This document shows, piece by piece, positions 4,927 to 5,704 of a stretch of 8,652 nt of DNA (position 1 is the first letter of the stretch; each line of letters begins with the position of its first letter). The notes beneath the pieces are model-generated. The model saw only the letters and a program-made list of their open reading frames with translations, was not told the origin of the DNA and did no database searches. Position numbers and translations under genes: made by a program. Origin of the DNA: a virus (Duplodnaviria > Heunggongvirae > Uroviricota > Caudoviricetes); the IMG/VR virus record IMGVR_UViG_2648501437_000024, positions 1 through 8,652 of that record; one strand, 5' to 3'.

Positions 4927-5117
4927 AATTCGGCACTGCCAGTATTTATTACTCAACAGTGCCAATCGCGACGGTTTAGTTTCTGCCAGGAAACGCACCG
5001 CTACTTGCACTTTTCGTTAGTGCCAGACGCTTTCGACTTCGCTCAATAGTAGAAGGCAAAATCTTTAAGTAGATGATGTTTCTGAGGACAGCACCTACTT
5101 TGTAATTTATACAATGT

Positions 5118-5134
5118 GATGTATGGAATCATTT
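5118..5134 (-). repeat. copy 2 of the repeated motif (minus sense AAATGATTCCATACATC)
   Basis: 17-nt exact match to 6130-6146 and 14-nt exact match to 2873-2886; no Shine-Dalgarno upstream, and the ORF it opens is only 29 codons. Confidence 0.6.
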
Positions 5135-5192
5135 GTTGTGAAAACAGGCACCAATGGCAACAGTGGTTAAACCTACACAACAATCCTGTCTT

Positions 5193-5314
5193 CACAACGT
5201 TGAGGCCACTACTCCGATTGAATGTTTGCCCAACATGTTACATATCAACGCTCGCCGGTATCTCTGTGAATAGAACCTTAGAATTGATAAAAATGTAATG
5301 GCCTCAACGTTGTG
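5193..5314. repeat. 16-bp perfect inverted repeat (CACAACGTTGAGGCCA ... TGGCCTCAACGTTGTG) flanking 90 bp
   Basis: Read directly (5193-5208 and 5299-5314); the arms share the core ACA-R-CGTTGAG with the 15-bp inverted repeat at 4395-4470. Confidence 0.6.
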
Positions 5315-5398
5315 TGCTGGCTAACCATACCAGCCGGGCTACGTCGCCGCTTTTTAACCCAGTATAAACGACATAATTGAACAAAATGACGTAACAGG

Positions 5399-5461
5399 AT
5401 GGGCGGTCAGAGGCTAAGAATCCGGGAGTCATATGGAGTTGAAAATATACCGACCGCCCAT
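5399..5461. repeat. 10-bp perfect inverted repeat (ATGGGCGGTC ... GACCGCCCAT) with 43-nt loop
   Basis: Read directly (5399-5408 and 5452-5461) in the ORF-free region. Confidence 0.5.
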
Positions 5462-5475
5462 TCTGTTACTTCATC

Positions 5476-5499
5476 GGAGGGAACACTCATGTTCCCTCC
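5476..5499. other. GC-rich stem-loop GGAGGGAAC-actcat-GTTCCCTCC (9-bp perfect stem, 6-nt loop)
   Basis: Read directly; no adjacent U-tract on either strand, so probably not a terminator; possible RNA stability or processing element, or a protein-binding palindrome. Confidence 0.5.
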
Positions 5500-5667
5500 T
5501 GCGTTCTGCAATCACACTCGCTCAGTGTGTCCCATTTCGGTAACGAGGCTGGAAACTGACCTCGCTGGTGTTTGGCTTATTAGGCTACTGCCAGATAGAC
5601 TTCTTCGTTTGCACTTGTATTTAAGTTCAAACAGTCGCGTCTCAACGAAAACAAAGTCATCTTATAC

Positions 5668-5695
5668 ATAAAAGATAAGTAAGTAAATACTTATC
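5668..5695 (-). terminator. weak terminator-like hairpin downstream of the 96-aa gene
   Basis: 8-bp AT-rich stem GATAAGTA/TACTTATC (5674-5681 and 5688-5695) followed on the minus strand by TTTT; the low-GC stem makes this doubtful. Confidence 0.25.
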
Positions 5696-5704
5696 ACTAT
5701 GTTT

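What the first reader, a model, noticed from the sequence alone, without database searches (positions are those of the whole stretch)
4927..5704. About 780 bp with no convincing ORF but dense in perfect stem-loops
In a window where genes otherwise overlap, this stretch has only two short track ORFs (60 and 90 aa) without RBS support. It contains motif copy 2, the 16-bp inverted repeat pair, a 10-bp inverted repeat with a 43-nt loop (5399-5461), a 9-bp GC-rich hairpin (5476-5499) and a 7-bp hairpin in the tRNA leader (4932-4938/4957-4963). It must hold the tRNA promoter, but the rest may encode non-coding RNAs or act as a replication or recombination hot spot. I could not identify a clean promoter; TATAAATT (minus sense, revcomp of 5102-5109) is only a 7/8 match to the T4 late-promoter consensus.
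Basis: seen in the sequence. Interest (0 to 1): 0.4.

Follow-up and report, generated by a model that had tools for sequence, protein, structure and literature searches.

The report
Phage-borne tmRNA-like structured RNA gene
Most of this "empty" 780 bp is a gene for a roughly 520-nt, heavily folded RNA found in hundreds of unrelated enterobacterial phages; it carries a look-alike of the peptide-tag template of the bacterial ribosome-rescue RNA (tmRNA) but has no tRNA-like end, and its 5' end can pair with the host's own tmRNA, so phages may use it to interfere with ribosome rescue.

Summary
They are not DNA hairpins. They are helices of one large RNA on the minus strand (about 5652 to 5135), the same strand as the tRNAs. 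Compensatory base changes in SSU5-like relatives support them. The window is an SSU5-like phage-plasmid, 98-99% identical to Escherichia phage Cyrano.

The RNA's 165-nt core recurs in FelixO1-like, T1-like, Jedunavirus and lambdoid phages. The core holds a start-codon-less frame, GCA AAC GAA GAA GTC TAT CTG GCA GTA GCC TAA TAA (ANEEVYLAVA**, compare the tmRNA tag ANDENYALAA). The stop codon sits in a hairpin loop, and two covarying pseudoknots follow. Three Rfam tmRNA models hit only this tag, all below threshold. No tRNA-like domain is detectable.

The 5' 40 nt are complementary to host tmRNA around its resume codon (-26 kcal/mol; 0 of 1000 shuffles do as well).

My best reading is a tmRNA-derived phage RNA, co-transcribed with the tRNAs, that acts on host trans-translation. 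That function is inferred, not shown.

I found no signs of a replication origin, no T4-type promoter, no Rfam family and no published description.

The parts
5659..5687 (-). Sigma-70-type promoter of the RNA, and probably of the whole tRNA operon: -35 TTTACT (5682-5687), 17-nt spacer, -10 TAAGAT (5659-5664). The predicted start is at about 5652.
   Evidence: Read from the sequence. The -10 (TAAGAT, TATGAT or TATAGT) lies 7-8 nt before the invariant GUUUUCG in all SSU5-like and FelixO1-like relatives. T1-like and Jedunavirus phages have TTGACA plus a -10 at the same place. The generic scan missed it because only 8 of 12 positions match. The start site is inferred.
5675..5694 (.). Palindrome ATAAGTAtttACTTACTTAT lying over the -35 hexamer; a possible operator.
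   Evidence: Conserved in all 8 SSU5-like representatives. A related sequence lies at 3278-3299 (pair I6). Its role was not tested.
5135..5652 (-). Gene for a roughly 518-nt structured RNA with a tmRNA-like core. The 3' boundary is the end of the last covarying helix.
   Evidence: Fold z = -6.8. On 7 relatives, 95% of cells are paired and 25 pairs change on both sides. Many G-U pairs would be A-C mismatches on the other strand. The true ends were not mapped.
5613..5652 (-). 5' arm complementary to host tmRNA at roughly nt 81-106 (resume codon and first codons). The blocks are GUUUUCGU (5645-5652) and GCGACU (5633-5638).
   Evidence: RNAduplex against E. coli ssrA nt 67-110 gives -26.3 kcal/mol; shuffles average -11.0 +/- 2.9 and 0 of 1000 reach it. 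The duplex is drawn. In lambdoid, T1-like and FelixO1-like relatives the arm is clearly antisense to ssrA nt 56-107.
5577..5612 (-). tmRNA-tag-like reading frame GCA AAC GAA GAA GTC TAT CTG GCA GTA GCC TAA TAA = ANEEVYLAVA**.
   Evidence: The Rfam models tmRNA_permuted and beta_tmRNA align exactly here, and RF00023 does so in relatives. The tags read AN[DE]x x[YF]LAVA across 125 loci. No in-frame start codon exists in SSU5, HK620, Carvaje or Michonne (read by eye). No length variants occur.
5565..5594 (-). Hairpin like tmRNA helix 5 (CUGG...CCAG) with the stop codons in its loop.
   Evidence: 100% paired but invariant. The UAA in the loop is invariant, whereas the neighbouring loop bases vary.
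5530..5564 (-). Pseudoknot A: stem CGAGG/CCUCG (5560-5564 / 5544-5548), with loop UUCCA (5550-5554) pairing to UGGGA (5530-5534).
   Evidence: Covariation in 22 relatives: the stem has 3 pairs and the loop-to-downstream helix 2 pairs with changes on both sides, at 99-100% paired.
5498..5529 (-). Hairpin CACAC/GUGUG (5513-5529) plus downstream GCAGAACGCAGG (5498-5509). This is pseudoknot B in other phage families.
   Evidence: The stem covaries. The loop-to-downstream pairing is kept in four different loop classes of other families. In the SSU5-like group only about 3 bp can form, so it is weak here.
5476..5499 (-). 10-bp GC-rich hairpin GGAGGGAACA / UGUUCCCUCC.
   Evidence: Helix 11: 6 of 11 pairs change on both sides.
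5385..5475 (-). 24-bp long stem (5452-5475 / 5385-5408) capped by a variable 43-nt region.
   Evidence: Helix 12: 25 pairs, 5 with changes on both sides, 98% paired, several G-U pairs.
5316..5335 (-). Hairpin GGCUGG...CCAGC.
   Evidence: Helix 16: 98% paired, with changes on one side only.
5193..5316 (-).
   Evidence: Helices 17 and 19, with 3 + 3 pairs changed on both sides. This module is exactly deleted in relative L093. Lambdoid and T1-like phages have a homologous helix.
5135..5198 (-). Closing helix GUUGUGAAGACAGG (5185-5198) / CCUGUUUUCACAAC (5135-5148).
   Evidence: 14 bp in the window. It covaries in L007 as GUUGUGGCCACG / CGUGGCCACAAC (read by eye). It competes with the previous helix for GUUGUG.
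5118..5134 (-). Repeated motif AAATGATTCCATACATC, directly after the RNA.
   Evidence: 4 copies against 0.10 expected. It is conserved at this spot in all SSU5-like relatives. Its role is unresolved.
5104..5111 (-). TATAAATT, a -10-like hexamer after the motif and a possible internal promoter.
   Evidence: Relatives have TAAGAT, TTAGAT or TATAGAT here, but at variable spacing. Weak.
4927..5103 (-). Spacer or leader before tRNA-Asn. Only the block 4998-5028 (GUCUGGCACUAACGAAAAGUGCAAGUAGCGG) is conserved, and the hairpin 4932-4963 is not.
   Evidence: Comparison of the window, SSU5 and L007. No terminator is predicted between the RNA and the tRNAs.
4474..4926 (-). Downstream tRNA operon: tRNA-Asn, tRNA-Thr, an STnc100-like module and tRNA-Ser.

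Best explanation
Window 5135-5652 (minus strand) is a gene for a roughly 520-nt structured non-coding RNA. It is transcribed from its own sigma-70-type promoter, and no terminator separates it from tRNA-Asn, tRNA-Thr and tRNA-Ser, so it heads the tRNA operon. RNase P/E-type processing would release it; that step is inferred.

Its 165-nt core is a widespread phage RNA family that appears to derive from the mRNA-like part of tmRNA. The core has a resume-codon-type frame without a start codon that encodes ANEEVYLAVA, stop codons in the loop of a hairpin like tmRNA helix 5, and then two pseudoknots. It has no tRNA-like domain, so it cannot work as a tmRNA on its own.

In place of tmRNA's 5' acceptor strand and first pseudoknot, it has an arm complementary to the host tmRNA around the resume codon. 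The RNA's own tag region has diverged at exactly the paired positions.

Proposed mechanism (inferred): the RNA anneals to host tmRNA and thereby blocks or re-programs tagging by trans-translation during phage or plasmid-prophage life.
For: Shown:
- One structured RNA on the minus strand. Fold z = -6.8; 25 pairs with changes on both sides against 2-6 in slid controls; G-U pairs specific to this strand.
- The family is wide. It occurs in 320 phage records (SSU5-like, Felixounavirus, T1-like, Jedunavirus, P22-like HK620), 773 plasmid records, at least 119 IMG/VR contigs and 137 of 5426 complete E. coli genomes. It is unannotated wherever I looked at the annotation.
- Core structure, including pseudoknot A. 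98% of cells are paired, with 8 pairs and 42 cells changed on both sides, against at most 1-2 in slid controls. Pseudoknot B is kept across four loop classes.
- Tag likeness. Three tmRNA models align on this frame only. The peptide pattern is AN[DE]x x[YF]LAVA with synonymous changes (GCA/GCC, GCC/GCT/GCG, UAA/UAG). In-frame stops lie upstream with no start codon. No indel occurs in the tag, although the flanks do have indels.
- Complementarity to real E. coli ssrA. Energies are -36 to -44 kcal/mol in lambdoid and T1-like forms. The 5' arm aligns to antisense ssrA better than 2000 shuffles do (0-1 reach it) in several families. All six subfamilies tested, including the window, beat 1000 of 1000 shuffles at the fixed target site. 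Pairing of the arm to the RNA's own tag region is much weaker.
- Independent promoters, and a position at or inside tRNA islands or in the lambdoid late leader.
Against: - There is no expression, processing or interaction data.
- All tmRNA hits are below Rfam gathering scores (21.7 bits against 47; 17.3 against 84). Nucleotide similarity of the tag to ssrA is modest (p about 0.02-0.3).
- For the window's own subfamily, complementarity to tmRNA is only 10 + 10 bp. It is not significant when the whole tmRNA is scanned (z about -1.3; 478 of 2000 shuffles). It becomes significant only once the site is fixed from other subfamilies.
- Homologues were retrieved with a pattern that fixes much of the tag, so conservation there is partly circular.
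- A frame that needs trans-translation but has no tRNA-like domain has no precedent.
- All hosts are enterobacteria with nearly identical ssrA, so I could not test whether the arm changes together with the host tmRNA.
Confidence: 0.5

Rival explanations
1. It is an ornate phage RNA of the ROOL/GOLLD kind: a large, pseudoknotted, abundant RNA next to tRNA islands that works as an RNA-only scaffold or cage, or binds ribosomes or tRNAs. On this view the tag-like frame and the complementarity to tmRNA are evolutionary leftovers without function.
For: The context and size class match what is described for ROOL and GOLLD: phages and prophages, often near tRNA islands, multiple pseudoknots, function unknown (PMC12286853, PMC5737381). 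The variable 3' modules contain tRNA-like pieces. In the window's subfamily the antisense arm is degraded.
Against: No ROOL or GOLLD hit appears even at E<=1 (whole window) or E<=10 (5250-5800). The most conserved part of the family is exactly the 5' arm, the tag and the pseudoknots, which are kept even in the minimal roughly 200-nt FelixO1-like form. The stop codon in the loop is invariant, and third-codon positions are the ones that vary.
Confidence: 0.3
2. It is a purely cis-acting leader of the tRNA operon. The folded region only stabilises the precursor or guides RNase P/E processing and tRNA output, and has no life of its own.
For: No terminator lies between it and the tRNAs. In T1-like phages the tRNAs follow within 5 nt. 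CACAAC/GUUGUG-clamped hairpins also flank the other tRNAs of the window.
Against: Lambdoid copies have no tRNA downstream and end at their own terminator. The distance to the first tRNA ranges from 200 to 740 nt. The conserved core has features that processing does not require (a frame, a stop codon, pseudoknots).
Confidence: 0.12
3. It encodes small proteins: the 60-aa or 90-aa plus-strand ORFs, or a 16-aa TTG-initiated peptide in the tag frame.
For: The ORFs exist. In the window a TTG lies in frame 6 codons before GCA (read).
Against: There are no Pfam or PHROG hits. The ORFs shift or break in relatives. A 1-nt indel puts the TTG out of frame in SSU5, and stops precede the tag frame in four families. 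The substitutions follow base-pairing, not codons.
Confidence: 0.04
4. It works at the DNA level, as a replication origin or a recombination hot spot built from cruciform-forming inverted repeats and the repeated motif.
For: It has long inverted repeats. One arm of a motif lies here (5118-5134) whose palindromic full copy (2853-2885) sits next to a tyrosine recombinase gene. The region is next to replication genes for ligase, primase and helicase.
Against: No iterons or tandem repeats, no DnaA boxes in the stretch, no AT-rich block or skew switch. The G-U pairs and pseudoknots make sense only in RNA of one strand. The same core sits in unrelated genomic contexts in other phages.
Confidence: 0.04

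Closest known systems
tmRNA (SsrA; Rfam RF00023 and clan CL00001), specifically its mRNA-like domain with helix 5 and pseudoknots PK2/PK3
   Same: A frame with no start codon that begins GCA AAC GA and encodes an ANDENYALAA-like peptide. An A lies 4 nt before the resume codon. The stop codons sit in a hairpin loop. H-type pseudoknots follow directly.
   Different: No tRNA-like domain: there is no acceptor stem with G3-U70, and neither ARAGORN nor Rfam detects a T-arm with a CCA end. There is no PK1. The 5' end is instead antisense to tmRNA. The tag ends in AVA rather than LAA. Scores are below every gathering threshold.
Phage-encoded complete tmRNAs, and the TLD-only tmRNA of mycobacteriophage DS6A
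   Same: Phages do carry parts of the trans-translation system. The DS6A RNA keeps only one half of tmRNA and is suggested to inhibit tmRNA by titrating SmpB (PMC4131195). Two-piece tmRNAs occur in marine phages (PMC9004378).
   Different: This is the opposite half: the tag template without the tRNA-like domain. The host range and sequences are also different. The 2014 exhaustive survey listed no enterobacterial phage.
ROOL and GOLLD large ornate RNAs
   Same: Large, pseudoknotted RNAs of phages and prophages, often beside tRNA islands, with unknown function.
   Different: No match to either model. The hosts and structure differ. This RNA has a tmRNA-like frame and an antisense arm.
STnc100 (Rfam RF02076), a gammaproteobacterial sRNA of unknown function
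   Same: The GGUGAAU...CCGGCACCAC module that this family models lies at window 4522-4706 (44.8 bits). A similar module is fused behind the tmRNA-like core in lambdoid and T1-like phages.
   Different: It does not cover the finding's region. The gathering score is narrowly missed. It is not detected in the lambdoid or T1-like loci I scanned.
Lambdoid pR' leader RNAs (lambda 6S RNA; the StxS sRNA of Stx phages). This comparison rests on my own knowledge.
   Same: In HK620 and an E. coli O26 prophage the element lies between Q/qut and the late terminator or holin. That places it inside the short constitutive late-leader transcript.
   Different: In the window it heads a tRNA operon of a phage-plasmid instead. 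There is no sequence relationship to the 6S RNA or to StxS.

Membership tests
tmRNA (RF00023, beta_tmRNA RF01850, tmRNA_permuted RF04321) | A tRNA-like domain: an acceptor stem closed by the 5' and 3' ends, G3-U70, a T-arm and a 3' CCA | tested here: not met
   ARAGORN finds no tmRNA in the window or in 4 related loci. The Rfam alignments cover the tag only. The T-arm-like hairpin seen in other families shows no significant similarity to the ssrA 3' end.
tmRNA (RF00023, beta_tmRNA RF01850, tmRNA_permuted RF04321) | A tag reading frame without a start codon, beginning at an Ala resume codon and ending in stop codons, with an ANDENYALAA-like peptide | tested here: met
   ANEEVYLAVA** at 5577-5612. 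The pattern AN[DE]x x[YF]LAVA holds across families.
tmRNA (RF00023, beta_tmRNA RF01850, tmRNA_permuted RF04321) | Pseudoknots around the tag (PK1 before it, PK2-PK4 after it) | tested here: inconclusive
   Two covarying pseudoknots follow the tag. There is no PK1. In the window's subfamily the second pseudoknot is weak.
tmRNA (RF00023, beta_tmRNA RF01850, tmRNA_permuted RF04321) | A score at or above the Rfam gathering threshold | tested here: not met
   21.7 bits against 47, 17.3 against 84, and 11-12 against 47 in relatives.
tmRNA (RF00023, beta_tmRNA RF01850, tmRNA_permuted RF04321) | Alanylation, SmpB binding and tagging of stalled nascent chains | not testable with these tools
   Needs biochemistry or mass spectrometry.
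ROOL / GOLLD | A match to the family covariance model | tested here: not met
   No hit at E<=1 over the whole window, or at E<=10 over 5250-5800.
ROOL / GOLLD | A large multi-pseudoknot RNA in phages or prophages next to tRNA islands | tested here: met
   description in PMC12286853.
ROOL / GOLLD | Assembly into a homo-oligomeric nanocage | not testable with these tools
   Needs cryo-EM.
trans-acting antisense sRNA against tmRNA (proposed here; no known family) | Complementarity to the target beyond chance and at a consistent site | tested here: met
   At ssrA nt 67-110, 0 of 1000 shuffles do as well, for six subfamilies. The arm aligns to antisense ssrA.
trans-acting antisense sRNA against tmRNA (proposed here; no known family) | The arm changes together with the host tmRNA sequence in different hosts | not tested
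   All hosts are Enterobacterales or near-identical copies.
STnc100 (RF02076) | A match to the model within the finding's region | tested here: not met
   The only hit is outside it, at 4522-4706 (44.8 bits against 47).
Replication origin (theta or iteron type) | Iterons or direct repeats, DnaA boxes, an AT-rich unwinding element | tested here: not met
T4-type late promoter | TATAAATA at -10 in a T4-like phage encoding gp55/gp33 | tested here: not met
   The window is an SSU5-like phage-plasmid. The hexamer changes to TAAGAT, TTAGAT or TATAGAT in relatives.

The most novel reading that the evidence does not exclude
The RNA is a tag template that acts in trans. Its 5' arm anneals to host tmRNA over PK1, the resume codon and the first codons, and so masks the host tag. 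The duplex presents the phage's own resume codon next to the host's tRNA-like domain. Rescued ribosomes then add ...ANEEVYLAVA (ending in AVA) instead of ...ANDENYALAA (ending in LAA). In effect the phage hijacks tmRNA-SmpB and changes the fate of tagged proteins.
Probability: 0.12. Interest if true: 0.95.

Novelty: new variant of a known kind. Interest (0 to 1): 0.75.

Why it matters
If this reading is right, very different phages share an unannotated RNA that targets or imitates the ribosome-rescue system of their hosts. These include FelixO1-like and T1-like therapeutic phages, lambdoid prophages of EHEC, and the SSU5/pHCM2/pMT1 phage-plasmids of E. coli, Salmonella, Klebsiella and Yersinia.

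That would add trans-translation to the host functions that phages manipulate through RNA. It would also explain long "empty" gaps in many phage genomes. The hypothesis is directly testable by looking for the tag peptide or for a tmRNA duplex.

Even if the link to tmRNA is only vestigial, this is a new large structured RNA family next to tRNA islands in the best-studied bacterial hosts, where genetics is easy. ROOL and GOLLD have lacked such a setting.

Tried and rejected
- Rfam at permissive thresholds on the window and on five related loci gave only sub-threshold tmRNA hits on the tag, tRNAs and STnc100. No ROOL, GOLLD, C4, YrlA or other family covers the region.
- The generic promoter and terminator scan found nothing in 4400-6200. 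I identified the promoter by comparison with relatives instead.
- Small-protein readings were rejected.
- Origin signatures were absent.
- A tRNA-like 3' domain: the T-arm-like hairpin plus CCACCACAAC of lambdoid, T1-like and Jedunavirus forms shows no significant similarity to the ssrA 3' end, and its closing helix has no G3-U70. I dropped it as evidence. The window's subfamily lacks this hairpin.
- A long-range helix between the tag and UUAUGUCGUUUA (5365-5376), proposed by RNAalifold, shows no covariation and 87% pairing (helix 4). Not accepted.
- The repeated motif as a -35-type promoter element was rejected because its spacing to the -10-like hexamer varies.
- The Y. pestis pMT1 sRNAs sR082 and sR083 (PMC3770706 supplement) do not overlap the homologous pMT1 region.
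- The single genome-contig scan used too loose a pattern and returned only chance matches.
- Ten literature searches found no description of a phage RNA that has a tmRNA tag template but no tRNA-like domain, or of an anti-tmRNA RNA. The library lacks most subscription journals, so absence is not proof.
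Full report
**What the window is.** Megablast places the window in the SSU5-like phage-plasmids. It is 97-99% identical to Escherichia phage Cyrano and to CMS-2020a, about 78% identical to Salmonella phage SSU5, and related to Klebsiella, Enterobacter, Citrobacter and Yersinia pestis pMT1-type plasmids. ARAGORN finds tRNA-Ser, tRNA-Thr and tRNA-Asn on the minus strand at 4474-4926. The stretch 4927-5704 carries no annotation in Cyrano or SSU5.

**Checking the observation.**
- Only two plus-strand ORFs (60 and 90 aa) and two minus-strand ORFs (50 and 42 aa) exist. 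None matches Pfam or PHROGs, and none is kept in six relatives.
- All the listed inverted repeats are present, and two are longer than reported: 20-nt arms at 5193-5212 / 5295-5314, and 23-24-nt arms at 5385-5408 / 5452-5475.
- The region folds far better than shuffled sequence, and the minus strand does best: -185.5 kcal/mol, z = -6.8, against -167.7 kcal/mol, z = -5.5, for the plus strand.

**First surprise.** A sensitive BLAST of the region hit more than SSU5-like replicons. It also hit unannotated DNA in unrelated phages at about 75% identity, 320 phage records in all:
- P22-like HK620, between qut and the late terminator tQ.
- FelixO1-like phages such as Michonne, inside the tRNA island and on the tRNA strand.
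- Klebsiella phage Carvaje, next to tRNA-Ser.
- T1-like Klebsiella and Aeromonas phages and a Jedunavirus.

The shared part maps to window 5510-5664.

**What the shared part is.** On the minus strand, the alignment of five families shows an invariant GCAAACGA...CUGGC.GUAGC.UAA. In frame this reads ANEEVYLAVA** in the window (5577-5612). Elsewhere it reads ANEDTYLAVA, ANEEMYLAVA, ANDNVFLAVA, ANDEQFLAVA and similar. The E. coli tmRNA tag is ANDENYALAA.

- Rfam's tmRNA_permuted and beta_tmRNA models align exactly on this frame (21.7 and 17.3 bits; E = 0.02 and 0.0023 in the 551-nt search). RF00023 does the same in relatives. All are below gathering scores.
- The frame has no start codon. SSU5 has TGA five codons upstream, HK620 and Carvaje have TAG eight codons upstream, and Michonne has TAG (read).
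- Differences between families are synonymous or conservative: GCA/GCC, GCC/GCU/GCG, D/E, Y/F. The stop is UAA, or UAG in Aeromonas phage pIS4-A.
- The UAA sits in a hairpin loop and is invariant, while the next loop bases vary and carry indels.
- IMG/VR holds no copy in which the variable 10 nt of the tag is shorter or longer.
- Caveat: most homologues were fetched with a pattern that fixes the ends of the tag.

**Structure of the core.** I tested the structure I had read from the alignment on 22 distinct sequences from lambdoid, T1-like, FelixO1-like and Jedunavirus phages. It consists of a helix-5-like hairpin, stem S1, a pseudoknot between the S1 loop and downstream bases, and stem S2.
- 98% of cells are paired, with 8 pairs and 42 cells changed on both sides. 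The six controls with slid partners give 34-39% paired and 0-1 such pairs.
- The pseudoknot helix switches among CCAG/CUGG, CCGA/UCGG and CCAA/UUGG.
- A second pseudoknot, between the S2 loop and downstream bases, is kept through four different loop classes.

A tag frame, a stop codon in a hairpin loop, and pseudoknots following in that order is the layout of tmRNA after its resume codon.

**What is missing.** ARAGORN finds no tmRNA in the window or in the relatives. No Rfam model aligns a tRNA-like domain. Only about 40 nt lie between the predicted start and the resume codon, against 89 nt in E. coli tmRNA, so there is no room for an acceptor strand plus PK1. By its defining features this RNA is therefore not a tmRNA.

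**The 5' arm.** I fetched the real E. coli K-12 ssrA gene.
- The 5' arm of the phage RNA aligns to its antisense strand. In L009, 36 of 41 positions match against ssrA nt 68-106, and HK620, Carvaje, Michonne and T1-like forms are similar.
- In several families 0-1 of 2000 shuffles reach the observed alignment score. Duplex energies are -36 to -44 kcal/mol.
- The target runs from the 3' strand of PK1 through the A-rich linker and the resume codon into codons 1-6.
- The RNA's own tag region has diverged at just those positions: AAGU|GCAAACGAAGAAGUC against the host's AGUC|GCAAACGACGAAAAC. Pairing of the arm to its own tag region is therefore much weaker.
- In the window's subfamily the arm has decayed to two 10-bp blocks (-26.3 kcal/mol). 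This is not significant against the whole tmRNA. It is significant at the site defined by the other subfamilies: shuffles average -11.0 +/- 2.9 and 0 of 1000 do as well.

**The rest of the window's RNA.** I aligned seven SSU5-like sequences (A4) and counted pairs on the RNAalifold structure. 95% of cells are paired and 25 pairs change on both sides, against 2-6 in slid controls. The structure was derived from the same sequences, so the percentage paired is biased upward; the two-sided changes are not.

- the GC hairpin 5476-5499 (6 covarying pairs);
- the 24-bp stem 5385-5475 (5 covarying pairs);
- the 20-bp repeat 5193-5316 (3 + 3 covarying pairs).

A 14-bp closing helix, GUUGUGAAGACAGG / CCUGUUUUCACAAC (5185-5198 / 5135-5148), covaries in L007. 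Many G-U pairs fix the strand as minus. The folded RNA therefore spans about 5652 to 5135. The FelixO1-like version is only about 200 nt, and one SSU5-like relative has lost the 5193-5316 module cleanly. So the 165-nt core is the constant unit and the rest is accessory.

**Transcription.**
- A -10 (TAAGAT, TATGAT or TATAGAT-type hexamer) lies 7-8 nt before the invariant GUUUUCG in SSU5-like and FelixO1-like phages. T1-like and Jedunavirus phages have TTGACA plus a -10 at the same place.
- In the window the promoter is -35 TTTACT at 5682-5687 and -10 TAAGAT at 5659-5664, under a conserved palindrome at 5675-5694.
- No terminator is predicted before the tRNAs.
- In SSU5-like replicons tRNA-Asn follows at a constant 680-740 nt. 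In T1-like phages the tRNAs follow within 5 nt.
- Lambdoid copies have no tRNA, and in HK620 and L009 the RNA ends at a terminator.

I conclude, by inference, that the RNA heads the tRNA operon and is released by processing. A second start near TATAAAT (5104-5111) is possible but weakly supported.

**The repeated motif.** AAATGATTCCATACATC occurs four times against 0.10 expected.
- The copy at 5118-5134 abuts the RNA's 3' end in all SSU5-like relatives.
- The copy at 6131-6144 is the start (MIPYI) of a 50-aa hydrophobic ORF with a good ribosome-binding site.
- The pair at 2853-2885 forms 13-bp inverted arms around a 7-bp spacer beside a tyrosine recombinase gene.

I could not decide between a recombinase arm, an operator and a relic of a gene start.

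**Known relatives.**
- No Rfam family covers the region.
- The exhaustive tmRNA survey of 2014 lists phage ssrA only in mycobacteriophages and Bacillus phage G. It also lists a TLD-only RNA in DS6A, thought to inhibit tmRNA (PMC4131195). The present RNA is the complementary half.
- ROOL and GOLLD share the context (phages, tRNA islands, pseudoknots, unknown function; PMC12286853) but not the models.
- RefSeq annotates nothing over the 25 listed matches among the 137 of 5426 complete E. coli genomes that carry the lambdoid form. One of these is O26:H11 strain 11368, where the element lies between Q and the holin gene.

**Verdict.**
- High confidence (about 0.9): a conserved structured RNA gene on the minus strand fills most of the finding, and its promoter probably serves the tRNAs.
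- Moderate confidence (about 0.65): its core descends from the mRNA-like domain of tmRNA.
- Lower confidence (about 0.4-0.5): it acts on host trans-translation through its antisense arm. Whether it blocks tagging or substitutes its own tag is open.

Noticed in passing
window 4522-4706 (-), between tRNA-Thr and tRNA-Ser: A match to STnc100 (RF02076) at 44.8 bits, just under the gathering score of 47. Its sequence (CACAACAGGAAAGAGCAUU...GUGCUCUUUUCGUUGUGGUGAAUGCGG...CACCGGGAAGCACCCGGCACCACAAC) is the same kind of 3' module that sits directly behind the tmRNA-like core in lambdoid, T1-like and Jedunavirus phages. Here the module is a separate unit inside the tRNA operon.
   Followed up: partly
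window 4394-4413 / 4452-4471: A 20-nt inverted repeat (95%) just 3' of tRNA-Ser on the minus strand. Its sequence CACAGCGUUGAGCGG... resembles the CACAACGUUGAGGCC helix at 5193-5316. CACAAC/GUUGUG-clamped hairpins appear to be a recurring module around the tRNAs.
   Followed up: no
window 2853-2885: AATGATTCCATAC-ATAGTAG-GTATGGAATCATT: 13-bp inverted arms around a 7-bp spacer, about 100 bp from the start of the tyrosine recombinase gene (1651-2754, minus). It has the shape of a lox/dif-type core site. Single arms recur at 5118-5134 and 6130-6146.
   Followed up: partly
window 5992-6144 (-): A 50-aa hydrophobic ORF (MIPYISLAFMGGFLIGFGIC...) with an AGGAG ribosome-binding site. Its first 14 nt are the repeated motif. 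The same arrangement occurs in SSU5.
   Followed up: partly
window 3301-4200: GC content drops to 0.28-0.31. The 302-aa ORF at 3385-4293 is absent from the otherwise 98% identical phage Cyrano, so it is probably a recently acquired cassette in the variable region beside the recombinase gene.
   Followed up: no
window 5675-5694 and 3278-3299: The palindrome ATAAGTAtttACTTACTTAT lies over the -35 of the RNA promoter and is conserved in all SSU5-like relatives. A related sequence lies at 3278-3299. It may be an operator for the HTH repressor encoded at 1270-1656.
   Followed up: no
L003 (HK620) 2216-2923; L250 (E. coli O26:H11 11368) 2142-3215: In lambdoid phages the element fills the unannotated gap between Q/qut and the late terminator or holin. 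That is the slot where Stx phages carry tRNAs and stx. The RNA would then be part of the constitutive pR' leader transcript in lysogens.
   Followed up: partly
L004 (Citrobacter phage Michonne) 4276-5111: A DUF2828 'RNA-binding protein' (TROVE/Ro-like, by its annotation) borders the tRNA island that contains the element.
   Followed up: no
L009, L005, L013, L080 (variable inserts 3' of the core): The variable inserts inside the CACAAC...GUUGUG helices often contain canonical T-arm sequences such as GGGTTCGAATCCC and GGGTTCGAGTCCCAT, without being called as tRNAs. They may be tRNA-like fragments or decayed tRNAs embedded in the RNA.
   Followed up: no
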